From: Parcubacteria group bacterium
GTDB taxonomy: Bacteria > Patescibacteriota > Minisyncoccia > Phycocordibacterales > UBA2135
Length of the DNA: 64,000 bases
NCBI GenBank assembly: GCA_016180525.1
Contig: JACPBB010000001.1
Location: 251,840 to 315,839, forward strand
Direction of reading: 5' to 3'
Shown here piece after piece: positions 1-14,938 of this stretch; the stretch's first letter is position 1; the number at the start of each line of letters is the position of its first letter. A program made the translations under genes and the position numbers. Below the pieces are notes generated by a model. The model was not told where the DNA came from. It worked only from the letters and a program-made list of their open reading frames with translations, and ran no database searches.

Positions 1-543
1 CCGGAGCATCAGTTGTCTAATGCCTAGCGATTTGGCAAGGCAATACACAACATACTTATATGACATGTGTGGCGGATCATTAAAAAGAATAATGTCCGGC
101 TTAAGCGTCGTAAGCACTCCATACCAGTATTTAAGATAAACATGATAGAGGTGCATTTTTTTGCTGAGTGGTGTTTGGGTCCAATCAGTGCTATCCATCA
201 TAATGAGCGACGAAATTTCACATTCAAAAAAGCTTTTGATAAATGTTGGGTCTAGGGGTTTAAAAAATGAAACATCTATCCCTTCCGCGGGTATCCCCAA
301 AACAGCATCGTTGGAATTATGAAAAATGGTATTCGGGAATAATGCTTTGTTATTAAATACGTCGCTCATAAAATCACGCTTCCCCGCAGTCCAATACGCG
401 ATATCCAAAGGCAGAGACTTTATAACTTCGGTCAGCATTTTTGAATGAAAATCAAAAATCATTGCACGCATCTTTTTAGATGTTGAGCTTTGATGACTCC
501 GATTATTCTGTATTTTGTTCTGATTTTTTGTTTTATAACTCAT
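1..543 (-). CDS. partial CDS (runs off window start); hypothetical, possibly another TagF-like/GT-B glycopolymer protein
   Basis: Minus-strand ORF from ATG at 541-543 (MSYKTKNQN...KPDIILFNDPPHMSYKYVVYCLAKSLGI...) with no stop before position 1. Absent from the supplied track because it is truncated. Weak KPDxxF... resemblance to the 4810-6222 and 20288-21661 paralogs. Confidence 0.35.
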   Translation of the reverse strand, partial: MSYKTKNQNKIQNNRSHQSSTSKKMRAMIFDFHSKMLTEVIKSLPLDIAYWTAGKRDFMSDVFNNKALFPNTIFHNSNDAVLGIPAEGIDVSFFKPLDPTFIKSFFECEISSLIMMDSTDWTQTPLSKKMHLYHVYLKYWYGVLTTLKPDIILFNDPPHMSYKYVVYCLAKSLGIRQLMLR

Positions 544-654: not shown

Positions 655-2106
655 TTATCGCAGCTCATAAATTTCAAAACCGTATGCGGGTTCGGCGGGA
701 ATATACTGACCTTCTATAATCTCGGCGCCTTCTTTAAAAAATCGGCTTCCTGGCGGCGCCACAACCACTTCGGGTAAGGACAGAGACAGCAGAGGGTTGG
801 AGCCCAAAACAGATGAGCCAATTGCCTCTATGACGACGCTGCGTTTCGGGTTTTGTAAAAGAGTATATACACTGATGTCGCCTAACACCGCGACGCTCTT
901 TTCAGCATACTCTTCATCCAAGTATTGTGCAGTCTTAATAGCGCTGTCTCCTGAAGAAATATCGGCTCCGGTGAATAAATGAATAAAGTGGACCCCGGAG
1001 AGAAGGGCAACAAAAAGAAGAGCGGCTACTTCAGCAGAGACTTTCGGCAACAGCGCAATGCGATTTTTAAATGCTTCAAACAGTAAAAGGAGCGCGTACG
1101 GGGAGAGCATCAGTATAAAAAGTTCCGCTGGGAAAATATACCGTAAATAGCCCGGGCTCCGAAGATAATACACGAATGCAAACAATGAATATATAAGAAC
1201 GAAGCGATACAAAAACGATATACGGGGCTGCCTCACTAGAAAACTGCCCGCAAGAAGCAAAAGCCACAAGAAAGAAAAATATATAAGTGTTGTTGCTTCA
1301 AAAAAATGGGAAAGATTTGAAGCCATGTTGAGCGCTGGATCTGAACCGAAAAAAGGATTTCTATAAAAATTTAGAACGTCTGTCCACAGCATAGGGTCAA
1401 GTGGGTTTGTCCGGATAAATAAGAAAGAAAAAAAGGCAGGGGGAAACATTCCGATTGCTATTAAACTCAAATCGGTAAAAGAAATGCCGCGTCTCATAAA
1501 AAAGAGAACGATGAGCGTCGGAATGAGCAGTAAAAACACGGACGGCTTCGCAACTGCCGCAAGACCAAACATAGCGCCCGCGGCAATTGAATTTTTCTTC
1601 TCAAGAAACAGATAAAGACCAAGGAGTGTAAGCGCAAACCCGGGAACTTCACCGAGCACGGTTCTCCCGACTCCATACACTGTTGGAAATCCGGTAAGAA
1701 GAAGAACCGCCCCTGCGGCAAGTTTTTCGTTGAAAAATTTCCGGATAAACCAAAAAGACAAAAGCACGGCCGCAAAGAGCCAAATTACCATATACACACG
1801 AGCAACGGTAAAAGAGCTCCCTAGCAGCTTAAATGCCCCCGCAAGGGGCAAGAGTACGGGGTATCCGGTCGCTTGCAAAAGATATGGCCTGCCTCCCCAG
1901 ATATCCGGAGCAAGTTCTATGTCAAGTACGCCATGCCGTGCAAAATTCTGTGCCAATCCAATACTCATCGCTTCGTCCGTCCATATACGAGGCTTAGTCG
2001 TCAAATAAAAAAATGAATATAATATTATAAAAACAAGTGAGCCGACAAGTACGGCCTTCGGGAACCACGTAACTGTTTTTAGATTTTGGAAAAAAGAGAA
2101 ATTCAT
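655..2106 (-). CDS. polytopic membrane glycosyltransferase, GT-C fold (PMT/ArnT-like, GT39/GT83-type)
   Basis: 483 aa with about 10 predicted TM segments at the N-terminus and a soluble C-terminal domain. WTDEA (DE-type) motif in the first loop as in PMT_2/ArnT-type polyprenyl-phosphate-sugar-dependent transferases. AAAGGA Shine-Dalgarno 5 nt upstream of the start. Confidence 0.5.
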   Translation of the reverse strand: MNFSFFQNLKTVTWFPKAVLVGSLVFIILYSFFYLTTKPRIWTDEAMSIGLAQNFARHGVLDIELAPDIWGGRPYLLQATGYPVLLPLAGAFKLLGSSFTVARVYMVIWLFAAVLLSFWFIRKFFNEKLAAGAVLLLTGFPTVYGVGRTVLGEVPGFALTLLGLYLFLEKKNSIAAGAMFGLAAVAKPSVFLLLIPTLIVLFFMRRGISFTDLSLIAIGMFPPAFFSFLFIRTNPLDPMLWTDVLNFYRNPFFGSDPALNMASNLSHFFEATTLIYFSFLWLLLLAGSFLVRQPRISFLYRFVLIYSLFAFVYYLRSPGYLRYIFPAELFILMLSPYALLLLFEAFKNRIALLPKVSAEVAALLFVALLSGVHFIHLFTGADISSGDSAIKTAQYLDEEYAEKSVAVLGDISVYTLLQNPKRSVVIEAIGSSVLGSNPLLSLSLPEVVVAPPGSRFFKEGAEIIEGQYIPAEPAYGFEIYELR

Positions 2107-2115
2107 TTTTCCTTT

Positions 2116-2814
2116 TTACTCCACAAAACGATGTTTAATTAAAACCCAGACCGCCTGCACTCCGTCACGCCACGCAATCTTTTTGCCTTCTTTTTTTGTG
2201 CGCGGGTAATACAATATGGGAACTTCTTCTATTTTTATTTTTCTTCTTCCAATTTTGGCGGTTACTTCCGGGCAAAATTCAAATCTGTTACAGGTGAGGC
2301 TCAGATTTTTTAAAAGATCCGCTTTAAATACTTTGTAACACGTTGGCTCATCAGTGATCTTAAGACCATATAATATATTTGCCAAAAAGCTTAAAAAAAC
2401 ACCGCCTAAATAAAACAAAGGACCAGCACTTTTTTTATTTAACGCGTTGAGATTACGCGAGCCATACACCACATCTACGCGACTGGACACAATGGGTTCT
2501 ATAAGTTTCTTGTAATCATTTGGGTCATATTCCAAGTCAGCGTCTTGAATAAGAATAATGTCTCCTGTTGCAGATTTAATCCCCTGCCGTATTGCGTAAC
2601 CCTTGCCATAATTCCGCTCTAAATTAATTATTCTTAGTTCTCTATATTTATAATTGCTTTTTACAAGTATTTGAGGCGTACGGTCAGTGCTTCCGTCGTT
2701 TATAACAATAACCTCTTTTTCTACATCAGAAAGTGGGGCCGCATAAACCAAAGAAAGAATTTTCTCCATTGTTTTTTCTTCATTATATGCAGGAATAATA
2801 ATAGAAAGTTTCAT
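2116..2814 (-). CDS. GT2 family glycosyltransferase, polyprenyl-phosphate sugar synthase type (DPM1/GtrB/ArnC-like)
   Basis: MKLSIIIPAYNEE...VIVINDGSTDRT...DADLEYDP signature of GT2 dolichyl/undecaprenyl-phosphate glycosyltransferases. Confidence 0.85.
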   Translation of the reverse strand: MKLSIIIPAYNEEKTMEKILSLVYAAPLSDVEKEVIVINDGSTDRTPQILVKSNYKYRELRIINLERNYGKGYAIRQGIKSATGDIILIQDADLEYDPNDYKKLIEPIVSSRVDVVYGSRNLNALNKKSAGPLFYLGGVFLSFLANILYGLKITDEPTCYKVFKADLLKNLSLTCNRFEFCPEVTAKIGRRKIKIEEVPILYYPRTKKEGKKIAWRDGVQAVWVLIKHRFVE

Positions 2815-2916: not shown

Positions 2917-4698
2917 CTATTGCCTAATATTATACATCTTGAAGAAGTAGGAGTCTTTCTTTTGGAGAAGATCGCCCGGCTTCCCAATTTCGGTTATTTT
3001 TCCATTATCTAAAACGAGAAGTGTGTCGCAATTCATAACAGTCCCCAAGCGGTGCGCAATGGCCAAAACCGTTATCTTTCCTTTTAAATTTTCTATGACT
3101 TCCTGCACCCGTTTTTCAGATTCGTTATCCAGTGCACTCGTCGCTTCGTCAAGAATGAGTAGTTGTGGATTTCGTGCCAACACTCTGGCAATAACGATTC
3201 TTTGCCGTTGTCCTGCCGACAAGCGGATGCCGCGCTCTCCTATTACCGAATCCCATTTTTTGGGTAATACTTCTATCGTCTCATAAATATTCGCCTGTTT
3301 CGCGGCGTATCTAATTTGTTCATCAGTGATGGTATCGTCAAAAAAACGAATGTTATTTGCTACTGTATCATTTATTAAATGAATATCTTGAGAAACATAC
3401 CCCACATTTCTACGAAATTCATGCAGATCAATTTCTGAGATTAAGGCTCTGTCTAAGAGAATGTCTCCTTTAGTCGGTTTAAATAAACGAAGCACGAGGT
3501 CAACAATCGTTGTTTTCCCCGCGCCAGAGGGGCCGATAAGCCCCACGAGTGACCCTTTGGGAACAGAAAAGGAAACTCCCGAGAGTATTTTTTTGTCTTC
3601 AGTATATCCAAATGACACATTGATAAATGAGAACTTTTCTTTAAACACAAACGCCTGCCCTCCCCTGTCTTCCTCTTCGTTTTTAAGCGCCCTTTTTTGA
3701 TATGAAAGCACGTGCTCAAGATATGGAATCATTCTAAATATGGTTTGAAGATGGGTCTGGAAACTTTGCACTTGAGAAAAAATTCTTTGAATCAAGTATA
3801 CAATGGCTATAAACGCGGGAAGATTAAAGTCTCCCGTTTTATAAGAAAAGGAAAAAAGCAGAAGAATAAAGATGACCCCGAACGGCTGAAAAAAGGAACC
3901 GAATACAGTGCTGATGAGCGCCCTCTTTATTTGAAGTTTCCGCAACGTTTCAAAATATTTTTCACCGACCTCTTCCACCGAATCGGTAACAGACATTGCT
4001 TTTACCGTTTTCATTCCAAGAACGTTTTCATTAACGAAGTGGGCGACACTTCGTGTTTTTTCGGCAACCTCTTGGCTTATCCTGCGCATTGTATTCACAA
4101 TCGGCTGAAATCCGATCGTAATAATAACACCCACACCCATAGTCAAAAGAGTTATGAAGAAAGAGATATTAACCGCGACAATAATATATACCAAAAGGCT
4201 CGTAAGAATGAGAATAAAAGAACTTAATGTCTCCAGAAGCTTTCTCACGTACGCAATTTCAACCGAAAGAACTTTTTCCAAGTGTCCTATTTTTTGATCC
4301 AGAAGGTGCCCCCATTTGGAACGCAGAGATTTTACAAAAAGCTCATCACGAATATTTTTTTCATAGCCATATGCTATTTTGAATTGAACGTATGACCCGA
4401 TAAACAGGACAGCGGCCTTTATGATAAAGAGAACCGCAATAAAAATAAGAAGATAATGTAAAGTAAAATCGGCTCCCAAAAACCCAAATAAACGTTCAAT
4501 AGCTTGTGAAATAAAATCATCTGCCGGACCAGCGTCTGTAATAAAAGAAAAAAGAGGAATCAGGGCATTAGCGCCCACACCCTCAAGAAGGCCGCTTAAA
4601 AAACCGATGCCGGTTAACGCCAGGATTTGTAATTTATAATCGCCAAACGCATCTTTCAACAAAGATAGGCCGCGAATGATTTTTTTAATAATATTCAT
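2917..4698 (-). CDS. ABC transporter, fused permease/ATP-binding protein (MsbA-like exporter)
   Basis: Six N-terminal TM helices. Walker A GPSGAGKTT, ABC signature LSAGQRQR, Walker B ILDEATSALD. Confidence 0.9.
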   Translation of the reverse strand: MNIIKKIIRGLSLLKDAFGDYKLQILALTGIGFLSGLLEGVGANALIPLFSFITDAGPADDFISQAIERLFGFLGADFTLHYLLIFIAVLFIIKAAVLFIGSYVQFKIAYGYEKNIRDELFVKSLRSKWGHLLDQKIGHLEKVLSVEIAYVRKLLETLSSFILILTSLLVYIIVAVNISFFITLLTMGVGVIITIGFQPIVNTMRRISQEVAEKTRSVAHFVNENVLGMKTVKAMSVTDSVEEVGEKYFETLRKLQIKRALISTVFGSFFQPFGVIFILLLFSFSYKTGDFNLPAFIAIVYLIQRIFSQVQSFQTHLQTIFRMIPYLEHVLSYQKRALKNEEEDRGGQAFVFKEKFSFINVSFGYTEDKKILSGVSFSVPKGSLVGLIGPSGAGKTTIVDLVLRLFKPTKGDILLDRALISEIDLHEFRRNVGYVSQDIHLINDTVANNIRFFDDTITDEQIRYAAKQANIYETIEVLPKKWDSVIGERGIRLSAGQRQRIVIARVLARNPQLLILDEATSALDNESEKRVQEVIENLKGKITVLAIAHRLGTVMNCDTLLVLDNGKITEIGKPGDLLQKKDSYFFKMYNIRQ

Positions 4699-4809
4699 AA
4701 TAATCCAGATAACCCAAATTATTTATCCGAATAACCCGGATATAATACTAGATATAATAATTTTGACATATAATTATCTGGGTTATTCGGATACATTTAT
4801 ATATTCGGA
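4699..4809. repeat. intergenic palindromic element, family 'AATAATCC / CCGAATAACCC', copy 1
   Basis: CCGAATAACCCGGATATAAT (about 4727-4746) versus the reverse complement of ATTATCTGGGTTATTCGG (about 4773-4790). Shares ACCCAAATTATTTATCCGAATAACCCGGATATAAT core with 9283-9417. Fills the whole gap upstream of the ABC transporter gene. Confidence 0.75.
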
Positions 4810-6222
4810 TTATGATGACATTTCTCCATTGGCGGTTTGTATCAGAATTTTCGCGATTCGCTCTGACGATTTTCCGTCAACTTTATAACACAGTTTTTGA
4901 AGTAATTGCTTTCGCTCCTCTCGCTTGTAACTTGGGTCAAGAAGGTAGGTATTAATACTTGCCTTAAGTTCATCTTCCGAGCGAGCCAAGTCAACAGCCC
5001 CTGTTTCAAGCACCCACTCCATATGGTCCTGCGTATAGAGCAAGGAAGAGACATCTTTTTTTGTGTGCGGGTGATGGAGAACGTTAAACGCAACATTTAT
5101 AAGCGGCTTGTCAAAGCACACACAATCAAGATTGAGCGTTGAAGCAACAGCAACCAATACGTCACAGTGATATATAAGGTTTGTAAATTTCTTTATCTCA
5201 TCCACGCCCGGGTCCCAATTATCTCCAAAAAAGTCTGAGAGAGTAAAATTTTTATCAACAACTACGTTAGACTCTCCTTCAAAGGCGGTAAGTCGCTTTG
5301 TTCTTGCGTCAGTATAATGCGGACGTATAAAAAGCTGAGCTGGAAGAGATAAAGCTCCTGGGGTGTTTACTAAGCGGACGAAGAACGAGACGACGCGCGC
5401 ATCGTCGGGTGCCCACGCTCCTTCAGAGCCATAAAAAATAATTTTTTTCTTCGGATCAAGCCCTACGGAGCGGCAATACTCCTCTCTGCTTACTAAAATC
5501 TCCGGCCTTCTGTACCAGTCAAATTGCGGAAAGCCTGTAACCACAATCTGCTCGAGCGGCATGGCCTGCACTCGAACAGCTTCTTTCTTCATGCGTTCGG
5601 CTTGCACAATAAGAACATCAGGAATGACGCGATATAACAATTGAGTTATGTTATCCCACCCCTTCGGCATTGCCACCGTTTTAACGCCACGCTTCTCTGC
5701 CTCTTTCATCATGTCTATGTCAAGATGGGCCTGTATTGAAGTAGAAAAAACAAGTGACGGTTTATATTTTTCAAAATATGAAGCATACGTATTGTGACTA
5801 AACACGCGTTTTTCTATAAAACGCGCGAATTTTTTGAGAAGAGGAATTTTGCTTGCGATTGAAAAAAGAATTAAATCTACATATTTCCAAAAAAATGCGC
5901 GCTCCCTCTTTTTGTCTGGCATGAATTGACTGTACATCCACCGAGACTTACTTGAAATAAGGAGTGGCGTTAACTTCGCAAATCGCGAATGTCCCCGTAA
6001 ATGTATACTCGGTGCGACTTCAAGAACGACCTGCTCGTCTTCAAGTTCTTTTTTTAAATATTCCGGAATTGATAGTAAACGATGGGTATCAAAAAAAATC
6101 ACAACGCGGAAACCAGCGTCTTTAAGATGCTTGAGAGTCCCGCTTCGCAGAATATTTCTTACGATAAAACCGCGGGTAATTATAATAAAAATTGTTTTTA
6201 GTTTTGCATTATTATTTTGCAT
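4810..6222 (-). CDS. GT-B fold, TagF-like (CDP-alcohol glycerophosphotransferase-like) surface glycopolymer protein, paralog A
   Basis: TIFIIITRGFIVRN N-terminus, IRPHY and HCDVLVAVASTLNLD...KPLINV C-terminal motifs resembling the TagF kpHP / ...DYSSV...KPiif motifs. Clear paralog of 20288-21661. The annotated ATG sits inside a conserved upstream promoter-like motif, so the true start is uncertain. Confidence 0.4.
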   Translation of the reverse strand: MQNNNAKLKTIFIIITRGFIVRNILRSGTLKHLKDAGFRVVIFFDTHRLLSIPEYLKKELEDEQVVLEVAPSIHLRGHSRFAKLTPLLISSKSRWMYSQFMPDKKRERAFFWKYVDLILFSIASKIPLLKKFARFIEKRVFSHNTYASYFEKYKPSLVFSTSIQAHLDIDMMKEAEKRGVKTVAMPKGWDNITQLLYRVIPDVLIVQAERMKKEAVRVQAMPLEQIVVTGFPQFDWYRRPEILVSREEYCRSVGLDPKKKIIFYGSEGAWAPDDARVVSFFVRLVNTPGALSLPAQLFIRPHYTDARTKRLTAFEGESNVVVDKNFTLSDFFGDNWDPGVDEIKKFTNLIYHCDVLVAVASTLNLDCVCFDKPLINVAFNVLHHPHTKKDVSSLLYTQDHMEWVLETGAVDLARSEDELKASINTYLLDPSYKREERKQLLQKLCYKVDGKSSERIAKILIQTANGEMSS

Positions 6223-6284
6223 TTTTCGTTTTAAGTTTTACGTTTATCTTACAACCTATAACCTAATACCTAGAACCTTGTTTT

Positions 6285-7568
6285 TTATTTATTTATAAAC
6301 TCTATTGTCTTATCAACTGATTTTAAATTAATGCCCGCATTGTCATATTGCTTTGGAAGTATTCCGCTTTTAAATTGACGTAATGTTTCTATAAATTCAT
6401 TTTCGTTAGCAACAACGTGTTTAATATAAAAATGTTTGGCGTTATCATTCAGTTTCCTAAAATTTGAAAAATTGGTAAATAGTGCCGGTACGCCGCTTGC
6501 GAGTACCATGTAATTCACGCTTGATGTCGGATCGCCAATGTATATATCGGACAAACACAAAAGTTCATCCGTCCTTGATTCATTGTGGTATATTTTAATA
6601 TCAAATTTTTTATATGATTCATATATCGTTTTTGTTTTGACCTCCGACGGATGAATTTTTAAAATAATATCCGCTGTTTCTGTCGGAAACACCGTCTGTA
6701 TCATTTTAAAAAGAGAGCTATGGTGAGTAACGTGCTCTTCTGGGGTCATGGTGTACCCCTCCGGAATAGGGAGAACGTGAAAACGAAACAGATTTACAAA
6801 AATTTTTATTTTATCTTCGGATAATCCGTATTTACTGAGAAGCTCTGTGCGAAAAAGATGATTTGAATCAATTTTCTGTTTTAGCTCATTTGTAATCTGG
6901 AAATCGAGAGGGCCGACAACGTGCACTGTCCTGAAATCATGTCCTTTTTCAACAGAATCTTGCGCTTCTTTTTTTGTAAACACACCGATTTTATTAGGGA
7001 TCGCTGGGGTGAATCCAAACCGTGGCTCTTTATAAAACAAATCCAATATCCAAAATAAAATTCCCAAAAGGCGGTAATATATATTTCGTGCAAATGTTTT
7101 TTCCTTCGCAGCAACACCGAAACTCTGCCTGGTAAGCAGTGCTGACCCCCATTGCAGCGTAATGGTTTCAATTCCCATCCGATTGGCCTCTTTAAAAATT
7201 GTATCATACGGGTACCTTGATTTTACGGCAATAATTTTTGCCGGCTTAATGGTCTTTAAAAAAGTACGGCACTCTATGCTGTGCGCGTACCTGTTCTTAA
7301 CCGGAGTAAAAAAAGGAATATGAAATTTAGAACTGCCCTTGAGACCTTTTTCAAGAATGTAATATGTATAGTGCTTGTGTTTGCAGTACTCAATAAGTTC
7401 TCTTCGACGGGAGTCATCTCCGCTTATAAATAAAAAACCGACATCGTAGGTATTTTTAAGATGCGGAATGAGCCGCTCATAGTGCTTGAGCGGCCCTATG
7501 TATTGCGGTATAAAATAAATTTTTTGTTTCGTATGCATATGCGCATTCATCAAAAACTCCTTACACAA
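6285..7568 (-). CDS. TagF-like CDP-glycerol/ribitol glycerophosphotransferase family protein (putative)
   Basis: LKIHPSE and LSDIYIGDPTSSVNYMVLASGVPALF motifs resembling the TagF/TagB C-terminal catalytic-domain motifs. Confidence 0.4.
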   Translation of the reverse strand: MCKEFLMNAHMHTKQKIYFIPQYIGPLKHYERLIPHLKNTYDVGFLFISGDDSRRRELIEYCKHKHYTYYILEKGLKGSSKFHIPFFTPVKNRYAHSIECRTFLKTIKPAKIIAVKSRYPYDTIFKEANRMGIETITLQWGSALLTRQSFGVAAKEKTFARNIYYRLLGILFWILDLFYKEPRFGFTPAIPNKIGVFTKKEAQDSVEKGHDFRTVHVVGPLDFQITNELKQKIDSNHLFRTELLSKYGLSEDKIKIFVNLFRFHVLPIPEGYTMTPEEHVTHHSSLFKMIQTVFPTETADIILKIHPSEVKTKTIYESYKKFDIKIYHNESRTDELLCLSDIYIGDPTSSVNYMVLASGVPALFTNFSNFRKLNDNAKHFYIKHVVANENEFIETLRQFKSGILPKQYDNAGINLKSVDKTIEFINK

Positions 7569-7605
7569 TCAATACTTTTAACCAATTTGTCCTTATTAAA
7601 GTTGT

Positions 7606-8463
7606 GTGGTTTCCGTCCTCTGTGCAAATCTTGTGCGCGAGAGAGCACGATGTTATATTGTACCAATGACAATGCGAGACAACAAAAAATGGCAAAAAAA
7701 TTGGCAGCAGGATAAGTTGTATGCCGATATTTTTAAAAAACGGGCAACAGGAGAGCTTCCCGAAATGGAATCGAGCAGGGCGGCGGCAAAAAAAATTCTA
7801 AAATATTTTAAATCCGGGTATTCAATGCTTGATGTCGGCTGCGGAGCCGGGCACTATCTTAACTCCTATGACAGACAACTGAAGGGCAAAAAATACACGT
7901 ATGTCGGCATTGACGCCTCAAAACGATATGTTGATATTGCAAAAAAGGTCTACGCAGAGAGGGGCAACGTGTCATTTCGTGTCGGCTCTATTTATAAATT
8001 GCCGTTTAAGAATAAGTCATTTGATATCGTGGTGTGCAACAATGTGCTCCTGCATCTACCCGAAATTAAACAAGCGATAAAAGAACTTAATCGGGTTGCC
8101 AAAAAAGTGGTGATTATAAGAACGCTTGTCGGCTACAAGTCGTATTATATTAAAAACGTCTGCACCAAAAGCGATTTTGAATATATTAATGTCCCCGACA
8201 ATGACCCGTTTTATAAAGACGGTAGCCCAAAGAATTTTTTCTATTTCAACATTTACAGCAAGCCATATATAGAGGCCGTGGTAAAAAAATATTCACCCAA
8301 AGCAAAGGTAAAAATAGAAGAAGACCGTGATTTTGACGTCAAGAATCTTGCCAAAAACAAAAAAGATTTCCGGGGCAGAATAAATGCCACGGAACTTGCC
8401 GGGAGCATGCAGGCATCAGGTTATATATTATTGCCATGGGCTTTCGTTACTATAGAAAAATAG
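7606..8463 (+). CDS. class I SAM-dependent methyltransferase
   Basis: LDVGCGAGHY (motif I), VGID, FDIVVCNNVLLHLPE (post-I/II). True start may be the internal Met at about 7666-7672. Confidence 0.85.
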   Translation: MVSVLCANLVRERARCYIVPMTMRDNKKWQKNWQQDKLYADIFKKRATGELPEMESSRAAAKKILKYFKSGYSMLDVGCGAGHYLNSYDRQLKGKKYTYVGIDASKRYVDIAKKVYAERGNVSFRVGSIYKLPFKNKSFDIVVCNNVLLHLPEIKQAIKELNRVAKKVVIIRTLVGYKSYYIKNVCTKSDFEYINVPDNDPFYKDGSPKNFFYFNIYSKPYIEAVVKKYSPKAKVKIEEDRDFDVKNLAKNKKDFRGRINATELAGSMQASGYILLPWAFVTIEK

Positions 8464-8481
8464 TCGCCAGTGGGAATTGTA

Positions 8482-9282
8482 TTACATCCGCTCTTTCTCA
8501 ACCCTAAGAAAAGTAATGTACATTTTGATGAAATTTGAGACGAGAAATCCAAAATTATAGAGCAAAATAAGTAACAGGTACCCCGCAAGAAATTCCCATT
8601 TTCCAAAAAGAACAAAGATAGAAAACCACAAAATAAGACCCGGTTCTGAAAAAAAATTATCTTTAATAAGCACATGTCGATATAATTTTGCCATGTGAAA
8701 GAAAACGCTCATACTTCTGCCCGCCTCTTTCCTCACGAAAGAAGCCGTTTCCATATCATCTCCTCGGTGATGGCCCATTAAAAAATTAATTCTCTTTATG
8801 TTAATCGTTCTGTAGAGCAGAAAAAAAAGTGACGCGCTGATAGCTGCTATGAAAATAATTTCGGGAGATAGGGGCCCTACGGTGACTCCCTTTGAAAATA
8901 AAAGATAGCCGATTGATGAGGGTATAAATGTGTAGAAAAAATCGGCGCCCAACGCATCAAGCGCACCCCCGTACGTGGTTCTTCCGTGAACGCGCGCGAC
9001 ATCTCCGTCAGTTGAGTCAAGAACGCCAAAAATAAATATTCCAATAATTCCCGCGATGGCATATCCAAGTATAAATAAAATCGCGCTTGTTATAATTGCC
9101 ACTAAACTTAAAAAAGTTACAACATCCGCTGAAATGCCGAGATTTAAGAATATAAATGCAGAGTATGGGGAAAGCGCTTTTGTAATAATGTTTATTGGAA
9201 CAAACCGCTCCGCCAATCTCCGTGCTACAGGACGATTGGGATCGTAGCGAGTATCAAAAATTTGTTTTAGTGAGTATCTCAT
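8482..9282 (-). CDS. CDP-alcohol phosphatidyltransferase family membrane protein
   Basis: DSTDGDVARVHGRTTYGGALDALGAD matches the D-G-x2-A-R...G-x3-D-x3-D signature. Multiple TM helices. Confidence 0.75.
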   Translation of the reverse strand: MRYSLKQIFDTRYDPNRPVARRLAERFVPINIITKALSPYSAFIFLNLGISADVVTFLSLVAIITSAILFILGYAIAGIIGIFIFGVLDSTDGDVARVHGRTTYGGALDALGADFFYTFIPSSIGYLLFSKGVTVGPLSPEIIFIAAISASLFFLLYRTINIKRINFLMGHHRGDDMETASFVRKEAGRSMSVFFHMAKLYRHVLIKDNFFSEPGLILWFSIFVLFGKWEFLAGYLLLILLYNFGFLVSNFIKMYITFLRVEKERM

Positions 9283-9417
9283 AAATAAAATAATAACCCA
9301 AATAATCCGAATTATTTACTCGAAAATCCCGAATAAAATTGTGAATTAATAACTCTTTGGGGAATGTCATATAATACATTCGTGATTTTCGGGTATATTC
9401 GTAGATTCGGGTTATTG
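9283..9417. repeat. intergenic palindromic element, same family, copy 2
   Basis: AATAACCCAAATAATCCGAATTATTTACTCGAAAATCCCGAATAAAAT ... GATTTTCGGGTATATTCG ... ATTCGGGTTATTG. Fills the gap upstream of the CDP-alcohol phosphatidyltransferase gene. Confidence 0.75.
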
Positions 9418-10299
9418 CTAATAATGTTTAAACCAAACATCAAAAAGACTTGCTTCTTTAGGAAAATACGCCTTTTGTGCTTTTATGAGACGCTGATCCC
9501 CAAACATTGCCCCGAGGTCAAACAGCGCAAATAGATTATTTACCCATCGCGGGAGCTTAACCGTATTATACGGCCGATAATCAAAAAATTCCCCCATGCG
9601 ATGTTTTGTAATTTCCAGTGTCGGAAATTGATGAAATAGTTTTTGCACCTCCCGCTTTGTAAATATGGCCGTCTTTGGAGTCCCGCCATGGACTTCCGTC
9701 ACTTCATTATATACTTTCTGCCAATCAAGCCCATATCTAAACCACTTTCCCCGCAAAATACCATGAATGAAACATCGTTTTATGTAGTGCTTCCAGCCGC
9801 GCGCATAGACCGTTACAATCGCCTTTCCGTCTGGTTTTAAAACGCGAAACATTTCATTAACCGCTTTTTGGGTGTCTGGAGTATGGTGAATTACTCCAAG
9901 ACAAACAACAAGGTCAAATGTTCCGTCTTTAAATGGAAGCGCCTCTACGTTTGCTTCTCGAACTTCTTTATACGGCAAGTTTCTTAAATTAAAATTAAGT
10001 TTCGTAAGCATTACTTGGTCCGGCCCTAAATCAGTTGCGGTTACATTCGCGCCATACTTTGCATATTCAACCGAATCGGTCCCGATACCGCATCCTATTT
10101 CAAGTACATCCTCTCCCCGATGATATTCAAACTCCATCTCGTTTTTTATGTATTCGTAATATATTTTATATCGCTTATAGGCAAGTTCATTAAACCACGG
10201 GAGTGTAAACGGCGTTCTTTTTGAATACCACTGCTGGGGAATATTTTTCTTTCCCCAATATTGTTTTACTTCATCAATGGTTATTGCTTTCTTGTCCAT
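9418..10299 (-). CDS. class I SAM-dependent methyltransferase
   Basis: LEIGCGIGTD, ATDLGP, FDLVVCLGVIHHTPD, LKPDGKAIV motifs. Confidence 0.85.
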   Translation of the reverse strand: MDKKAITIDEVKQYWGKKNIPQQWYSKRTPFTLPWFNELAYKRYKIYYEYIKNEMEFEYHRGEDVLEIGCGIGTDSVEYAKYGANVTATDLGPDQVMLTKLNFNLRNLPYKEVREANVEALPFKDGTFDLVVCLGVIHHTPDTQKAVNEMFRVLKPDGKAIVTVYARGWKHYIKRCFIHGILRGKWFRYGLDWQKVYNEVTEVHGGTPKTAIFTKREVQKLFHQFPTLEITKHRMGEFFDYRPYNTVKLPRWVNNLFALFDLGAMFGDQRLIKAQKAYFPKEASLFDVWFKHY

Positions 10300-10347
10300 G
10301 AGTTTGATAGTAAATTAAAACAGGAATAAAGACAAGAATGTTGCCTA

Positions 10348-10381: not shown

Positions 10382-10390
10382 TAAAACGTT

Positions 10391-11396: not shown

Positions 11397-11400
11397 TATA

Positions 11401-13573: not shown

Positions 13574-14257
13574 TTATATCAGTGGATTTCTGTTAATCAT
13601 ATATGCGGGATCAAAATCAATGACACTCCCCGAAACCGCTTTCGCGCCCCCTTCCGCAAGCCATATTACATAGGAAGCCACATCTTCTGGTTCAATGAAA
13701 CGACCAGAGGGAATTTTTTGAGAAACAGCCTTCAGAAATTCCGGATTAGGCGGAGTTGCTTTCATGAATTTGGAAAGATGCCCGAGCCGAATACAATGAG
13801 TTGCAATGCCAAATTGGCCCCACTCAACAGCAAGCTCTCGCGTAAGGCCTTCTAAGCCAGCTTTTGAAGCCACATAGGCAACACGCCTAGGATACGGATG
13901 CGTAACATTGATAGAAGAAATTGTAATAAATGTGGAATGACCCGCCTTTTTCATTCTAGGAAACGCGGCGCGTGCAAATAAAAATGCTCCTGTCAAATTT
14001 ACGGCAAGGACATGATTCCATTCATCAAGAGAAAGTGATTCTGTTTCCTTAACAATGTTAGCCCCTGGACAATATATAGCGACATGAATCGTGTTGGGCA
14101 AGTCTTGATATGATTCTTCTTTGGTTGCGTCTGGATGATCTTCCGTGAGCCATGTCGGATGAACCGAGTACCCTGCATGAGTGAGCGTTTTAGCAATAGC
14201 CCCACCAAGATTCCCTGTCGCACCAACAACAACCGCATTTTTATTTTGTGTGTTCAT
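13574..14257 (-). CDS. SDR family NAD(P)-dependent oxidoreductase
   Basis: VVGATGNLGGAIA Rossmann motif and YVASK catalytic YxxxK. Start moved to the internal ATG (MNTQNKN), which has an AAGGTG Shine-Dalgarno 8 nt upstream. The longer track ORF overlaps the upstream gene. Confidence 0.85.
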   Translation of the reverse strand: MNTQNKNAVVVGATGNLGGAIAKTLTHAGYSVHPTWLTEDHPDATKEESYQDLPNTIHVAIYCPGANIVKETESLSLDEWNHVLAVNLTGAFLFARAAFPRMKKAGHSTFITISSINVTHPYPRRVAYVASKAGLEGLTRELAVEWGQFGIATHCIRLGHLSKFMKATPPNPEFLKAVSQKIPSGRFIEPEDVASYVIWLAEGGAKAVSGSVIDFDPAYMINRNPLI

Positions 14258-14259: not shown

Positions 14260-14859
14260 TTATTTCACCTTTTCCCAATGAGCGTGCTTTGCTAAGTATA
14301 CCCAAACATACGAAACGTGCACACCCGGCTCTCCAACCACGGGATGGTACCCCATGGGGATTGTGCTAAACGTGTGGCTCTTCACGGGCCACATCTCATC
14401 AACCGGTTTGCCATCATGCCAAACACCCTTTCCTCTCTGCCAGGCAACAGGCTCTCTGCCACGCACCCCACCCGTTAAAATGTGGAAAAAGACTTCTTCA
14501 AATCCTACTTCAGGATTCAATTCAAAATCATGCGGAAGAGACGACCATGTTCCAAAACCACGATGTTTTGTAATACCAAGACGCATTGTGGGAGCTGGCC
14601 CCCCTGGTTTTAAAAAATGATACACGTCTCTTTCTGCGTTTCCTTCCCCAACAACAATGCGATGCGCTTCCTCGGCTTTAACCAAAATAGGTTTTTGATT
14701 ACCGCTTTCCGTAAAAACTACTTCTTTTATATCACCCCCATCAAGAACTACCCGCGCACGTTCAATATTGGTCTTAAAAATCAAAACGCTCGGATTGCCC
14801 GGAAGATGTGATGCCGTAAGCGAGTCTAATTTTGGTGTATTGCTCCATTGTGCAAGCAT
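14260..14859 (-). CDS. KduI/IolB-family cupin sugar isomerase (5-keto-4-deoxyuronate / 5-deoxyglucuronate isomerase-like)
   Basis: EEVFFHILTGG...IPMGYHPVVGEPGVHVSYVWVYLA resembles IolB EEIYYHE...VPKGYHPVGVPDGYDSYYLNVMAG. Start placed at the internal Met (MLAQW), which has an AAGGAAAA Shine-Dalgarno upstream. The track ORF (to 14979) overlaps the neighbouring gene. Confidence 0.45.
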   Translation of the reverse strand: MLAQWSNTPKLDSLTASHLPGNPSVLIFKTNIERARVVLDGGDIKEVVFTESGNQKPILVKAEEAHRIVVGEGNAERDVYHFLKPGGPAPTMRLGITKHRGFGTWSSLPHDFELNPEVGFEEVFFHILTGGVRGREPVAWQRGKGVWHDGKPVDEMWPVKSHTFSTIPMGYHPVVGEPGVHVSYVWVYLAKHAHWEKVK

Positions 14860-14938
14860 ATTATTTTCCTTATGCATTATTCTTTTGTATCTAACATTAA
14901 TAGTGCACAATAAGTTGTTGCCACCTAAGAAAAATTTC

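What the first reader, a model, noticed from the sequence alone, without database searches (positions are those of the whole stretch)
2917..9282. Teichoic-acid-like polyol-phosphate / phospho-alcohol glycopolymer module: TagF-like paralogs, CDP-alcohol phosphatidyltransferase, LicC-like cytidylyltransferase, MsbA-like exporter
Three to four GT-B proteins carry TagF-like C-terminal motifs (4810-6222, 6285-7568, 20288-21661, possibly the partial gene at 1-543). Near them lie a CDP-alcohol phosphatidyltransferase-family enzyme (8482-9282), a LicC-type CTP:phospho-alcohol cytidylyltransferase (17598-18314) and an ABC exporter (2917-4698). Together these could build a CDP-activated polyol- or choline-phosphate-containing polymer, or a Kennedy-pathway-like phospholipid head-group transfer, in an organism expected to have minimal lipid and wall biosynthesis. 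A CDP-alcohol phosphotransferase paired with LicC, rather than a LicD-type transferase, is an unusual combination.
Basis: inference. Interest (0 to 1): 0.6.

Follow-up and report, generated by a model that had tools for sequence, protein, structure and literature searches.

The report
CDP-glycerate-type envelope polymer cassette
An ultrasmall Parcubacteria (CPR) bacterium carries a conserved gene set that most likely activates a small hydroxy-acid (probably glycerate) as a CDP-ester and attaches its phosphate form to a membrane-anchored surface polymer; it resembles teichoic-acid synthesis but uses a different building block, and its core genes also occur in DPANN archaea.

Summary
The genes are real, but two calls need correcting and the chemistry is probably not polyol or choline. 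4810-6222 and 20288-21661 are TagF-family (Pfam above threshold; GT-B model). 6285-7568 is only a remote relative (profile-profile 98.8%). The partial gene 1-543 is not TagF-like: its full-length homologues carry a KpsC/S-type domain. 8482-9282 is an atypical CDP-alcohol phosphotransferase. 17598-18314 is LicC-like, and 2917-4698 is an MsbA/PglK-like ABC exporter.

The LicC-like gene overlaps by 4 nt a glycerate-2-kinase homologue, not a choline kinase. No TagD, TarIJ, LicA or LicD was detected. The set TagF-like, AsnB, cytidylyltransferase, kinase, methyltransferase, CDP-OH transferase, TagF-like, ABC recurs in five other CPR loci. Its core (kinase, cytidylyltransferase, AsnB, methyltransferase, CDP-OH transferase) recurs in two Nanoarchaeota. 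In relatives an aminotransferase and a hydroxypyruvate-reductase-like gene precede the pair, pointing to D-glycerate.

The closest precedent is Caulobacter CpgD (LicC-like CDP-glycerate synthase) plus CpgA (CDP-alcohol transferase family).

Best reading, at moderate confidence: a CDP-glycerate(-amide) phosphotransfer system that builds a lipid-anchored, ABC-exported glycopolymer. This is a new variant of known kinds. All chemistry is inferred.

The parts
20288..21661 (-). TagF3: TagF/TarL-family GT-B phosphotransferase. It is the first gene of the precursor operon and the proposed transferase of the CDP-activated phospho-acid onto a glycan or lipid-linked acceptor.
18335..20242 (-). AsnB-type glutamine-dependent amidotransferase; its proposed role is amidation of a carboxylate of the head group or polymer. 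The true start is at 20242 (MCAIIG..., Cys2 nucleophile).
   Evidence: Asn_synthase 273.8 bits plus GATase_7. TIGR01536 459 bits, cut-off 267. N-terminus read. It lies next to a TagF-like gene in L003, L087 and L088 and is present in both DPANN loci.
17598..18314 (-). LicC-like (COG1213-type) nucleotidyltransferase; proposed CTP:2-phospho-hydroxy-acid (2-phosphoglycerate) cytidylyltransferase.
   Evidence: NTP_transf_3 51.2 bits. Best PDB hits are LicC 1jyk 1.4e-14, then PntC 6pd1 and IPCT 2xme/4mnd; only residues 2-121 align to LicC. Its closest clade is tiny, 8 proteins at 62% identity or more. It overlaps the kinase gene by 4 nt. One homologue's ORF (P0005) continues in frame into a kinase N-terminus.
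16255..17601 (-). DUF4147+MOFRL kinase, a homologue of glycerate 2-kinases; proposed to make the 2-phospho-acid substrate of the cytidylyltransferase.
   Evidence: DUF4147 187.8 bits and MOFRL 70.7 bits. Best NCBIfam models are glycerate 2-kinases, 200.6 bits, below the 670 cut-off. PDB 1x3l 8e-58; TM1585 glycerate kinase 2b8n 3e-42.
14939..16258 (-). L-fuconate-dehydratase-type enolase-superfamily sugar-acid dehydratase, which makes a 2-keto-3-deoxy sugar acid. Its role in the cassette is unresolved.
   Evidence: PDB ENOSF1 4a35 4e-167; FucD 1yey 3e-161. It overlaps the kinase gene by 4 nt. 77% identical in L003. Absent from L087, L089, L007 and L008.
14260..14979 (-). KduI/IolB-type cupin (keto-deoxy-uronate isomerase family). 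The gene caller prefers the shorter 14260-14910.
   Evidence: KduI 48.8 bits. No PDB sequence hit. 58% identical in L003.
13574..14257 (-). KduD-like short-chain dehydrogenase, the last gene of the precursor operon. A strong hairpin follows at 13536-13564.
   Evidence: adh_short_C2 112 bits. Best PDB hit is 2-deoxy-D-gluconate 3-dehydrogenase 1x1e, 1.4e-25. Terminator-like hairpin.
9418..10299 (-). Class I SAM methyltransferase. It lies just before the CDP-OH transferase gene in every CPR locus examined and close to the core genes in both archaeal loci. Its substrate is unknown.
   Evidence: Methyltransf_11 88 bits. 62-85% identical in L003, L087, L088, L089 and L090, and 41% in archaeal L008.
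8482..9282 (-). Atypical integral-membrane CDP-alcohol phosphotransferase; proposed to transfer the phospho-acid from the CDP-donor to a membrane acceptor (priming or anchoring step).
   Evidence: PF01066 24.7 bits, cut-off 22. PIP synthase 6h53 2.4e-5. Subfamily of 7 proteins with invariant D89 D92 G93 A96 R97 G105/106 D109 D114. AF2 pLDDT 79.8, and the Foldseek top 19 are all CDP-OH phosphotransferases.
7606..8463 (+). Second class I methyltransferase on the opposite strand. It is not conserved in relatives and its membership of the system is doubtful.
   Evidence: Methyltransf_11 79.3 bits. No orthologue at this position in L087-L090.
6285..7568 (-). TagF2: a divergent GT-B of the TagF/sialyltransferase-like superfamily (probable start 7550). 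It may use a CMP-ulosonic acid rather than a CDP-alcohol.
   Evidence: No Pfam hit of its own. 111 homologues. hhalign to the TagF3 clade gives 98.8%, E 1.3e-16. Family members hit Glyphos_transf (9/36), polysialyltransferase and GT52. Orthologues follow the ABC gene in L087 and L090.
4810..6222 (-). TagF1: a TagF-family GT-B transferase, paralogue of TagF3.
   Evidence: Glyphos_transf 29.4 bits. 32% identical to TagF3 over the full length. Orthologues (38-41%) lie next to CDPOH or ABC in L088 and L090. Weak hit to the BFO_1060 family, the Tannerella Pse/Leg transferases (PMC5420450).
2917..4698 (-). Fused TMD-NBD ABC exporter (MsbA/HepA/PglK type); proposed flippase or exporter of the lipid-linked product.
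   Evidence: ABC_membrane plus ABC_tran. HepA family 333.7 bits, MsbA 303 bits and PglK 223.7 bits, all below their cut-offs. 53-56% identical orthologues sit after CDPOH or TagF in L087, L088 and L090.
2116..2814 (-). GT2 polyprenyl-phosphate-sugar synthase-like enzyme (DPM1/GtrB/ArnC type).
   Evidence: Glycos_transf_2 116.5 bits. Best PDB hits are Dol-P-Man synthase 5mlz 1.3e-17, GtrB 5ekp and ArnC.
655..2106 (-). GT-C (PMT_2) membrane glycosyltransferase, 9 nt downstream of the GT2. Together they form an extracytoplasmic glycosylation pair.
   Evidence: PMT_2 32.2 bits, cut-off 26.1. Gap measured.
1..543 (-). N-terminal 181 aa of a 532-aa protein whose homologues carry a KpsC/KpsS-type Capsule_synth domain. 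It is not TagF-like.
   Evidence: No Pfam hit. No match to the TagF-like profiles. 37-47% identical to L087 14168-15751 (Capsule_synth 31.4 bits, cut-off 20) and L088 15807-17318. Full length seen in L091, followed by an HpcH aldolase and two CTP_transf_3 genes.
21662..21772 (-). Repeated palindromic leader element, copy 1, upstream of TagF3.
9283..9417 (-). Repeated palindromic leader element, copy 2, upstream of the CDP-OH transferase.
4699..4809 (-). Repeated palindromic leader element, copy 3, upstream of the ABC exporter.

Best explanation
This is a conserved CPR envelope-glycoconjugate system. It works like a teichoic-acid or group-2-capsule pathway, but its activated building block is probably a CDP-linked 2-hydroxy-acid phosphate, most likely CDP-glycerate.

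Proposed sequence of steps:
1. A glycerate-2-kinase homologue (16255-17601) phosphorylates D-glycerate or a close analogue at O-2.
2. The translationally coupled LicC-like enzyme (17598-18314) condenses the product with CTP to give the CDP-acid.
3. The AsnB-type amidotransferase (18335-20242) converts a carboxylate to a carboxamide. This would give a glyceramide-2-phosphate-type group, and it is the weakest step.
4. The atypical membrane CDP-alcohol phosphotransferase (8482-9282), always paired with a methyltransferase (9418-10299), transfers the phospho-acid to a membrane acceptor.
5. TagF-family GT-B enzymes (20288-21661, 4810-6222) add further phospho-acid units or decorate a glycan.
6. An MsbA/PglK-like ABC protein (2917-4698) exports the lipid-linked product.
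7. A polyprenyl-P-sugar synthase plus GT-C pair (2116-2814, 655-2106) modifies it outside the membrane.

What is shown: the gene families, the folds, the gene coupling and the conservation of the gene set. What is inferred: every substrate, the order of steps and the acceptor.
For: Family assignments:
- Pfam, NCBIfam and PDB hits for every component.
- The CDPOH model matches only CDP-alcohol phosphotransferases.

Coupling of cytidylyltransferase and kinase:
- The two genes overlap by 4 nt.
- In P0005 the cytidylyltransferase ORF reads in frame into a kinase N-terminus.
- The pair is adjacent in L003, L005, L087, L089, L007 and L008.

Conserved set:
- The window and marine Patescibacteria UBA2135 share the same order: TagF3, AsnB, CT, kinase, FucD, KduI, SDR, GH57, MTase, CDPOH, at 46-77% identity.
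- L087, L088, L089 and L090 repeat the order MTase, CDPOH, TagF-like and/or ABC; TagF2 orthologues follow the ABC gene in L087 and L090.
- Two Nanoarchaeota loci hold CT, kinase, AsnB, MTase and a CDP-OH_P_transf gene, with no TagF.
- In P0044 and P0052 a TagF3-like domain is fused to a CDP-OH-transferase-like membrane domain.

Glycerate specifically:
- The NCBIfam models and the named PDB relative that the kinase hits are all glycerate 2-kinases.
- In L087, L089 and L007 an aminotransferase and a glyoxylate/hydroxypyruvate-reductase-like 2-Hacid_dh (303-393 bits) sit directly upstream of the CT-kinase pair. This is the serine to hydroxypyruvate to D-glycerate to 2-PG logic.
- A LicC-like enzyme that makes CDP-glycerate from 2-phospho-D-glycerate, and a CDP-alcohol-transferase-family enzyme proposed to use it, are documented in Caulobacter (PMC12275187, PMC13228409, PMC9393093, PMC11324152).
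- Phospho-2-glyceramide groups exist in nature: Providencia alcalifaciens O22 O-antigen (cited in PMC6222762) and Thermus/Deinococcus phosphoglycolipids (PMC3398001).

Co-regulation: a repeated leader element precedes exactly TagF3, CDPOH and ABC.
Against: - No enzyme was assayed and no sequence comparison with CpgD or CpgA was possible.
- The kinase scores far below the glycerate-kinase equivalog cut-offs (200 vs 670 bits). 2-phosphoglycerate is also a glycolytic intermediate, so a dedicated kinase may mean a different acid (L-glycerate, lactate, glycolate, malate).
- In the window itself the aminotransferase/reductase pair is absent. A fuconate-dehydratase/KduI/KduD trio sits in its place, and that trio does not obviously yield glycerate.
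- In L088 the kinase/LicC pair is replaced by a TagD-like enzyme while AsnB is kept. AsnB is therefore not tied to a carboxylated donor, and the chassis can probably run on CDP-glycerol.
- The CDPOH signature deviates from canon: the last Asp is one residue out of register, and in the DPANN proteins it is replaced by N or H.
- TagF1 and TagF3 also weakly resemble CMP-nonulosonate transferases, and CMP-ulosonate synthetase genes lie just beyond the window.
Confidence: 0.45

Rival explanations
1. One reading: a classical poly(glycerol- or ribitol-phosphate) teichoic-acid-like polymer, or a phosphocholine decoration, built from CDP-glycerol, CDP-ribitol or CDP-choline.
For: - TagF-family hits sit above the Pfam threshold and NCBI names the proteins 'CDP-glycerol glycerophosphotransferase family'.
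- NCBI names the cytidylyltransferase 'phosphocholine cytidylyltransferase family' and LicC is its best PDB hit.
- In relative L088 the same MTase, CDPOH, TagF, ABC chassis sits next to a TagD-like cytidylyltransferase.
Against: - No TagD-type, TarI/TarJ-type, LicA, LicB or LicD gene was detected in the 64-kb window.
- The only CDP-type cytidylyltransferase is coupled to a glycerate-kinase homologue.
- Its alignment to LicC stops at residue 121, before the substrate-binding half.
- The exporter is not a TagGH-type ABC-2 transporter.
Confidence: 0.12
2. A Kennedy-type lipid re-heading pathway only. The CDP-acid is transferred by the membrane CDP-alcohol phosphotransferase onto diacylglycerol or archaeol scavenged from the host, making a new membrane phospholipid such as phosphatidyl-glycerate or -glyceramide. 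The TagF-like enzymes and the ABC protein belong to separate glycan pathways.
For: - The DPANN loci have kinase, CT, AsnB, MTase and CDP-OH transferase but no TagF-like gene.
- CPR and DPANN are generally held to lack de novo lipid synthesis (general knowledge, not tested here).
- CpgA adds phosphoglycerate to a lipid (PMC9393093).
- Thermus and Deinococcus have phosphatidyl-2-glyceramide-type lipids (PMC3398001).
Against: - In CPR the CDPOH gene is followed by TagF-like and/or ABC genes in L087, L088, L089 and L090.
- Fusion proteins join TagF3-like and CDP-OH-like domains.
- A shared leader element links TagF3, CDPOH and ABC.
- This reading also overlaps the priming step of the best explanation, so it is not fully exclusive.
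Confidence: 0.15
3. The TagF-like proteins are CMP-ulosonic or nonulosonic-acid glycosyltransferases. The dehydratase/KduI/SDR genes make an unusual 3-deoxy-2-ulosonic acid for a Kdo-like linker or cap, as in group-2 capsules. The LicC-like/kinase pair then serves only a minor decoration.
For: - TagF1 and TagF3 hit the BFO_1060 family (68 and 63 bits), whose founders are Pse/Leg transferases with a TagB-like domain (PMC5420450).
- TagF2 relatives hit polysialyltransferase and GT52 models.
- The partial gene is KpsC/S-like.
- An HpcH aldolase, two CTP_transf_3 genes and an ILVD_EDD dehydratase lie just past the window start.
- L087 and L090 carry CTP_transf_3, and L087 also NeuB, next to the module.
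- FucD yields a 2-keto-3-deoxy acid.
Against: - TagF3 heads the operon that encodes the CDP-type cytidylyltransferase and is 71% conserved there.
- The BFO_1060 hits are far below the cut-off of 200.
- TagF-CDP-OH-transferase fusions argue for a shared CDP-alcohol donor.
- This reading explains TagF2 and the partial gene better than it explains TagF3.
Confidence: 0.13
4. A catabolic sugar-acid island (an L-fuconate or hexonate pathway ending in glycerate kinase) that merely happens to lie inside a glycan cluster. There would be no functional link to the transferases.
For: Fuconate dehydratase, KduI, KduD-like SDR and a glycerate 2-kinase homologue are all enzymes of sugar-acid catabolism.
Against: - The kinase overlaps the cytidylyltransferase gene and, in P0005, its N-terminus continues the cytidylyltransferase ORF in frame.
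- The CT-kinase pair persists where the dehydratase trio is replaced by aminotransferase plus reductase.
- No transporter or aldolase is present in the operon.
Confidence: 0.04

Closest known systems
Caulobacter crescentus CpgD/CpgA (ceramide diphosphoglycerate pathway)
   Same: A LicC-like (COG1213) cytidylyltransferase makes a CDP-activated phospho-hydroxy-acid, CDP-glycerate, from 2-phospho-D-glycerate. A CDP-alcohol-phosphotransferase-family membrane enzyme is proposed to transfer it (PMC12275187, PMC13228409, PMC9393093, PMC11324152). The same two families are paired here.
   Different: - No ceramide kinase, spt or other sphingolipid genes were detected here.
- This locus has a dedicated kinase; the CpgD paper notes that none is known in Caulobacter.
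- AsnB, a methyltransferase, TagF-like GT-B enzymes and an ABC exporter are added here.
- The hosts are CPR bacteria and DPANN archaea.
- Sequence orthology to CpgD/CpgA was not tested.
Wall teichoic acid synthesis: TagB/TagF/TarL with TagD or TarIJ and TagGH
   Same: TagF-family GT-B enzymes above the Pfam threshold, with TarL and TagF among the best structural matches. The logic is the same: a CDP-activated donor, cytoplasmic assembly on a membrane acceptor, ABC export and extracytoplasmic glycosylation by a GT2 plus GT-C pair.
   Different: - There is no TagD/TarIJ donor synthesis and no TagO/TagA.
- The exporter is an MsbA/PglK-type half-transporter, not TagGH.
- A CDP-alcohol phosphotransferase is part of the set, which WTA pathways lack.
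- The donor is probably an acid, not a polyol.
Group-2-capsule-type systems with TagF-like polymerases (Bcs3, Cps3D) and KpsC/KpsS linkers
   Different: The organism is presumed monoderm, the exporter is not KpsMT-type, there are no multi-domain polymerases, and a CDP-OH transferase and a kinase/CT pair are added.
Pneumococcal Gtp1-3 (CDP-2-glycerol) and LicA/LicC/LicD (phosphocholine)
   Same: A small-molecule kinase plus a LicC-type cytidylyltransferase makes a CDP-activated substituent for a surface glycan. LicC is the best solved relative. Gtp2 is cited as a relative of CpgD in PMC11324152.
   Different: The kinase belongs to a different family (MOFRL, not choline-kinase or Gtp3 type). The transferases are CDP-OH-transferase and TagF-like, not LicD.
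IPCT-DIPPS (di-myo-inositol-phosphate synthesis)
   Same: It naturally pairs (as a fusion) an NTP_transf_3-type cytidylyltransferase with a CDP-alcohol phosphotransferase. Both window proteins hit it.
   Different: Its substrate is inositol-1-phosphate and both its substrates are soluble. Here the genes are 8 kb apart and sit in a glycan and export context.
Phospho-2-glyceramide groups: Providencia alcalifaciens O22 O-antigen; Thermus/Deinococcus phosphoglycolipid
   Same: These are natural products that carry a phosphate on O-2 of D-glyceric acid amide (PMC6222762 citing Ovchinnikova 2012; PMC3398001). That is the structure predicted by the kinase, CT, AsnB and phosphotransferase sequence.
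   Different: The papers read here give no biosynthetic genes for these groups. The link is by chemistry only.

Membership tests
TagF/TagB/TarL CDP-alcohol phosphotransferases (Pfam PF04464 Glyphos_transf) | Score above Pfam's gathering threshold | tested here: met
   4810-6222 scores 29.4 bits and 20288-21661 scores 34.9 bits, against a cut-off of 22.1. 6285-7568 does NOT meet it on its own; it is related only by hhalign at 98.8%.
TagF/TagB/TarL CDP-alcohol phosphotransferases (Pfam PF04464 Glyphos_transf) | GT-B (two Rossmann-like domains) fold resembling TagF/TarL | tested here: met
TagF/TagB/TarL CDP-alcohol phosphotransferases (Pfam PF04464 Glyphos_transf) | Catalytic histidines equivalent to those of TagF/TarL | tested here: inconclusive
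   R286 is invariant, and H288 and H339 are at least 90% conserved in the clade. An 'HP' motif aligns between the TagF2 and TagF3 clades. Structural equivalence to the TagF/TarL catalytic His was not mapped.
TagF/TagB/TarL CDP-alcohol phosphotransferases (Pfam PF04464 Glyphos_transf) | Cognate CDP-glycerol/CDP-ribitol synthesis genes (TagD, TarI/TarJ) nearby | tested here: not met
   No CTP_transf_like or TarJ-type hit in the window. A TagD-like gene is present only in relative L088.
CDP-alcohol phosphatidyltransferase (Pfam PF01066) | Score above Pfam's gathering threshold | tested here: met
   24.7 bits against a cut-off of 22, which is weak. NCBIfam equivalogs for AIP and PIP synthase score far below their cut-offs.
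CDP-alcohol phosphatidyltransferase (Pfam PF01066) | Signature D-x2-D-G-x2-A-R-x7/8-G-x3-D-x3-D | tested here: inconclusive
   D89, D92, G93, A96, R97, G105/106 and D109 are invariant in the 7-member subfamily. The last Asp (D114) is one residue later than canon, giving D-x4-D. The DPANN counterparts have N or H at the last position.
CDP-alcohol phosphatidyltransferase (Pfam PF01066) | Polytopic helical fold of solved family members | tested here: met
   AF2 model has pLDDT 79.8. The Foldseek top 19 PDB hits are all CDP-alcohol phosphotransferases (PIPS, AF2299, IPCT-DIPPS), with probability 1.00 but TM only 0.4-0.5.
LicC-type CTP:phosphocholine cytidylyltransferase | N-terminal nucleotide-binding half similar to LicC | tested here: met
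   1jyk is the best PDB hit, E 1.4e-14, aligned over residues 2-121.
LicC-type CTP:phosphocholine cytidylyltransferase | Conserved phosphocholine-binding C-terminal half | tested here: not met
   The alignment to LicC ends at residue 121 of 238. No NCBIfam equivalog cut-off is reached; the best is the archaeal GlmU N-domain at 88 vs 292 bits.
LicC-type CTP:phosphocholine cytidylyltransferase | Partner genes licA (choline kinase), licB, licD | tested here: not met
   None detected in the window. The adjacent kinase is DUF4147+MOFRL.
CpgD/CpgA CDP-glycerate pathway | COG1213/LicC-like cytidylyltransferase plus a CDP-alcohol-transferase-family partner | tested here: met
   Both families are present and co-conserved. 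The family assignment of CpgD and CpgA comes from PMC12275187 and PMC9393093.
CpgD/CpgA CDP-glycerate pathway | Sequence orthology to CCNA_01210 and CCNA_01217 | not testable with these tools
CpgD structures were not among the PDB hits.
CpgD/CpgA CDP-glycerate pathway | Ceramide acceptor machinery (spt, ceramide kinase CpgB, CpgC) | tested here: not met
   No such families among the window's Pfam hits.
MOFRL-type glycerate 2-kinase | DUF4147 plus MOFRL domain pair | tested here: met
   187.8 and 70.7 bits. PDB 1x3l 8e-58 and 2b8n 3e-42.
MOFRL-type glycerate 2-kinase | Reaches an NCBIfam glycerate-2-kinase equivalog cut-off | tested here: not met
   200.6 vs 670 bits and 167.8 vs 550 bits. It is a family member, but its substrate is not established.
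TagGH-type teichoic acid ABC exporter | Separate ABC-2 permease and ATPase | tested here: not met
   A single fused ABC_membrane+ABC_tran protein that resembles HepA, MsbA and PglK.

The most novel reading that the evidence does not exclude
CPR bacteria and DPANN archaea are the two radiations of ultrasmall episymbionts thought to live on scavenged lipids. They share a dedicated five-gene core: a glycerate-2-kinase-like kinase, a LicC-like cytidylyltransferase, an AsnB amidotransferase, a methyltransferase and an atypical CDP-alcohol phosphotransferase. In the most novel reading this core makes CDP-glycerate or CDP-glyceramide and installs it, Kennedy-style, on host-derived diacylglycerol or archaeol. 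The product would be an undescribed phosphatidyl- or archaetidyl-glyceramide lipid class. In CPR that lipid would also seed a poly(phospho-glycerate/glyceramide) 'teichoic acid' extended by TagF-like enzymes.
Probability: 0.2. Interest if true: 0.85.

Novelty: new variant of a known kind. Interest (0 to 1): 0.6.

Why it matters
Almost nothing is known experimentally about the envelope polymers and lipid head groups of CPR bacteria and DPANN archaea, although their lifestyle depends on surface contact with hosts.

- This locus gives a concrete, testable pathway. Two small soluble enzymes (kinase and cytidylyltransferase) can be expressed and assayed exactly as was done for CpgD.
- It supplies a candidate for the 'dedicated phosphoglycerate-producing enzyme' that the CpgD authors noted was missing.
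- It offers candidate genes for phospho-glyceramide substituents, for which the papers read here give no biosynthetic genes.
- It suggests that CDP-hydroxy-acid chemistry, so far documented only in a Caulobacter sphingolipid, is used more widely and across domains.
- It shows that proteins annotated 'CDP-glycerol glycerophosphotransferase' and 'phosphocholine cytidylyltransferase' in CPR genomes probably do something else.

Tried and rejected
- F420/LPPG-type lactyl chemistry. I considered it because fuconate dehydratase pathways yield L-lactate and a CofD-family gene lies at 45441-46448. Rejected: that gene is YvcK (TIGR01826 299.5 bits, cut-off 196; true CofD model only 32.6 bits).
- Phosphonate (PntC/AEP) activation. 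PntC 6pd1 is the second PDB hit. Rejected: no PEP-mutase-type family was found in the window.
- TagF-likeness of the partial gene 1-543 was rejected.
- KduI-like protein versus the PDB gave no hit.
- tRNA and Rfam scans of the window were empty.
- A literature search for teichoic acids in Patescibacteria found nothing specific.
- A literature search combining glycerate 2-kinase, cytidylyltransferase and O-antigen found no paper holding all three terms.
- The genome-contig scan with the cytidylyltransferase alignment mostly returned unrelated Saccharibacteria N-terminal matches. Only L006-L008 were informative.
- The covariance model of the leader element found only weak extra copies.

Full report
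**Source and setting**

The window has about 40% G+C, and almost all genes lie on the minus strand. It has no tRNA genes and no Rfam matches. Three window proteins are identical to proteins that NCBI assigns to a 'Parcubacteria group bacterium' MAG. Nearly the whole window, from position 1 to about 55 kb, is one very large glycan-biosynthesis region. It holds many GT4, GT2 and GT47 enzymes, methyltransferases, sugar-nucleotide modifying enzymes and a carbamoyltransferase.

**Checking the observation**

- Two ORFs are TagF-family by Pfam's own threshold: 4810-6222 (29.4 bits) and 20288-21661 (34.9 bits), against a cut-off of 22.1. They are full-length paralogues, 32% identical.
- 6285-7568 has no family hit of its own. 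A profile of its 36 homologues matches the TagF3 clade profile at 98.8% probability (E 1.3e-16). 9 of the 36 reach Glyphos_transf, and others reach sialyltransferase families. It is a remote relative that may use a CMP-sugar acid.
- The partial gene 1-543 encodes only an N-terminus and matches neither profile. Its full-length homologues carry a KpsC/KpsS-type Capsule_synth domain.
- 8482-9282 is a weak but consistent CDP-alcohol phosphotransferase. Pfam gives 24.7 bits against a cut-off of 22. PIP synthase is the best PDB sequence hit. The 19 best structural matches to its model are all members of that family.
- Its signature motif is conserved except that the last Asp is displaced by one residue.
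- 17598-18314 is closest to LicC among solved structures, but only over its N-terminal half.
- 2917-4698 is an MsbA/HepA/PglK-like half-transporter.

**What surrounds the cytidylyltransferase**

The LicC-like gene overlaps by 4 nt a DUF4147+MOFRL gene (16255-17601). That gene's best matches are glycerate 2-kinases. It in turn overlaps by 4 nt an enolase-superfamily dehydratase that is essentially an L-fuconate dehydratase (E 1e-161 to FucD). A KduI-type cupin and a KduD-like SDR follow, and a strong hairpin lies at the end. Upstream in the same operon are an intact AsnB-type amidotransferase with Cys2 and TagF3. No choline kinase, LicD, TagD or TarIJ was detected anywhere in the window.

**Conservation**

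The cytidylyltransferase belongs to a very small clade: 8 proteins at 62% identity or more, then a gap to 37%.

- In marine Patescibacteria UBA2135 (L003/L006) the gene order is identical, at 46-77% identity: TagF3, AsnB, CT, kinase, FucD, KduI, SDR, GH57, methyltransferase, CDP-OH transferase.
- In one homologue (P0005) the CT ORF continues in frame into a kinase N-terminus.
- The CDP-OH transferase subfamily has only 7 members. Their contexts are:
  - L087: TagF, AsnB, aminotransferase, 2-hydroxyacid dehydrogenase, CT, kinase, then NUDIX, MTase, CDPOH, ABC, TagF2-like, KpsC/S-like.
  - L089: AsnB, aminotransferase, dehydrogenase, CT, kinase, MTase, CDPOH, TagF.
  - L090: MTase, CDPOH, TagF1-like, ABC, TagF2-like.
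  - L088: AsnB, a TagD-like cytidylyltransferase, MTase, CDPOH, TagF, ABC, AsnB, TagF1-like, KpsC/S-like.
- Two TagF3 homologues (P0044, P0052) are fused to a CDP-OH-transferase-like membrane domain.
- A scan of 185,579 species genomes found, besides UBA2135, only two Nanoarchaeota (DPANN) loci with full-length relatives. Both hold CT, kinase, AsnB, a related methyltransferase and a CDP-OH_P_transf gene, but no TagF-like gene.

**Which molecule is activated?**

Four lines point to glycerate.

1. The kinase's NCBIfam and named PDB relatives are all glycerate 2-kinases.
2. In L087, L089 and archaeal L007, an aspartate-aminotransferase-like gene and a 2-hydroxyacid dehydrogenase sit directly in front of the CT-kinase pair. 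The dehydrogenase's best models are glyoxylate/hydroxypyruvate reductases (303-393 bits). Serine to hydroxypyruvate to D-glycerate to 2-phosphoglycerate is the established serine-cycle logic (established knowledge).
3. Caulobacter CpgD, a LicC-like COG1213 enzyme, makes CDP-glycerate and prefers 2-phospho-D-glycerate (PMC12275187, PMC13228409). CpgA, of the PgsA/CDP-alcohol transferase family, is needed to add the second phosphoglycerate to a ceramide lipid (PMC9393093, PMC11324152).
4. Phosphate on O-2 of D-glyceric acid amide occurs in the Providencia alcalifaciens O22 O-antigen (cited in PMC6222762) and in Thermus/Deinococcus phosphoglycolipids (PMC3398001). This matches what kinase, CT, AsnB and a phosphotransferase would make.

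There are caveats.

- The kinase scores far below the equivalog cut-offs.
- 2-PG is already a glycolytic metabolite, so a dedicated kinase may signal another acid.
- The window lacks the aminotransferase/reductase pair.
- L088 keeps AsnB while using a TagD-like enzyme. The amidation step is therefore the weakest inference, and the chassis appears flexible about its donor.

**The dehydratase trio**

FucD, KduI and KduD-type enzymes all act on 2-keto-3-deoxy sugar acids. Just past the window start, the same contig encodes the rest of the KpsC/S-like protein. After it come an HpcH/HpaI aldolase, two CTP_transf_3 (CMP-ulosonate synthetase family) genes, a Zn-ADH and an ILVD_EDD dehydratase. Two readings remain open.

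- The trio feeds a 3-deoxy-2-ulosonic acid branch: CMP-activated, then transferred by the KpsC/S-like and perhaps TagF2 proteins, as in group-2 capsule linkers.
- Together with the aldolase, the trio forms a non-phosphorylative Entner-Doudoroff/glucarate-like route to D-glycerate.

I could not decide between them.

**Export and later steps**

The ABC protein is of the MsbA/PglK/HepA type, not TagGH. The GT2 at 2116-2814 is closest to Dol-P-Man synthase, GtrB and ArnC. It lies 9 nt from a GT-C (PMT_2) gene. This pair resembles those that glycosylate teichoic acids outside the membrane (established knowledge).

**Co-regulation**

A repeated, internally palindromic element of 115-145 nt occupies exactly the three intergenic regions in front of TagF3, the CDP-OH transferase and the ABC exporter.

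- The 18-mer core occurs 4 times, only there, against 0.41 expected.
- Predicted RNA folds have z-scores of -3.0, -3.4 and -1.5.
- A covariance model recovers the three copies at 106-145 bits and finds only weak intergenic matches elsewhere.

Whether it is an operator, a leader RNA or a REP-like repeat is unknown.

**Verdict**

The system works like a teichoic-acid or capsule assembly line that runs on a CDP-activated phospho-compound. It fails the tests for classical CDP-glycerol/ribitol teichoic acid and for LicA/C/D phosphocholine decoration.

The best-supported mechanism is a CDP-glycerate-type (possibly amidated) phosphotransfer system. A membrane CDP-alcohol phosphotransferase primes it, TagF-like enzymes extend or decorate the product, and an ABC transporter exports it (confidence about 0.45). 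It is a new variant of known kinds. Its core is shared by CPR bacteria and DPANN archaea, which makes it worth an experiment.

Noticed in passing
window 4699-4809, 9283-9417, 21662-21772 (minus strand): Three paralogous, internally palindromic leader elements of about 115-145 nt lie immediately upstream of the ABC, CDP-OH transferase and TagF3 genes. Each has a tandem GGRTTATY pair next to the ATG and an inverted copy 75-110 nt upstream. The 18-mer core is found only here (4 matches against 0.41 expected). There is no Rfam family. Weak relatives occur at window 31606-31719 and L003 5422-5550.
   Followed up: partly
L007 (JBBSXG010000048, Nanoarchaeota) 2048-10447; L008 (DATDZA010000018, Nanoarchaeia) 9995-19371: DPANN archaea carry the same core: LicC-like CT at 33-36% id, MOFRL kinase at 37-43%, AsnB at 34%, a methyltransferase and a CDP-OH_P_transf gene. 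They have no TagF-like gene. This is a cross-domain distribution among ultrasmall episymbionts.
   Followed up: partly
P0044 (740 aa; locus L086 3838-6060) and P0052 (713 aa): Natural fusions of a TagF3-like GT-B domain (51-54% id) with a C-terminal CDP-OH-transferase-like membrane domain. In that domain the second half of the signature is also non-canonical (DGxDGxVAR-x8-G-x4-E-x4-D).
   Followed up: partly
L091 11564-18504 (same contig, beyond window position 1): After the KpsC/S-like gene come an HpcH/HpaI aldolase, two CTP_transf_3 genes, a Zn-ADH and, on the opposite strand, an ILVD_EDD dehydratase. This may be an aldolase-based route to a CMP-activated 3-deoxy-2-ulosonic acid.
   Followed up: no
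window 18335-20242: The public gene call for the AsnB homologue (611 aa) starts too late. The ORF from 20242 begins MCAIIG, which gives the Cys2 nucleophile required by class II amidotransferases.
   Followed up: yes
window 45441-46448: This CofD-family protein is a YvcK-type UDP-GlcNAc-binding protein (TIGR01826 299.5 bits), not an F420 enzyme. It is embedded in the glycan cluster.
   Followed up: yes
window 11444-13486: A GH57-family protein (680 aa) sits between the precursor operon and the methyltransferase/CDPOH unit. It is bracketed by hairpins at 13536-13564 and 11400-11431 and is conserved at the same place in UBA2135 (46% id). Its role is unknown.
   Followed up: no
window 22000-55000: The rest of the window is a very large glycan cluster. 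It holds several GT4 and GT47 enzymes, two sugar C-methyltransferases (31712-32968, 54519-55757), a DegT aminotransferase, a carbamoyltransferase (37984-39795), UDP-sugar dehydrogenases and a GtrA-GT4 fusion (49539-51071). This points to a heavily methylated and modified polysaccharide.
   Followed up: no
window 55758-57206 and 60175-62229: An LTD+PKD-domain surface protein and a TraG/VirD4-type coupling-protein homologue lie at the far end of the window.
   Followed up: no
L003 17101-17862, L087 7945-8688 (NUDIX); L007 7181-7804 (HIT): Nucleotide-hydrolase-family genes recur inside the cassette in relatives. They may act as proofreaders or regulators of CDP-donors. They are absent from the window.
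   Followed up: no
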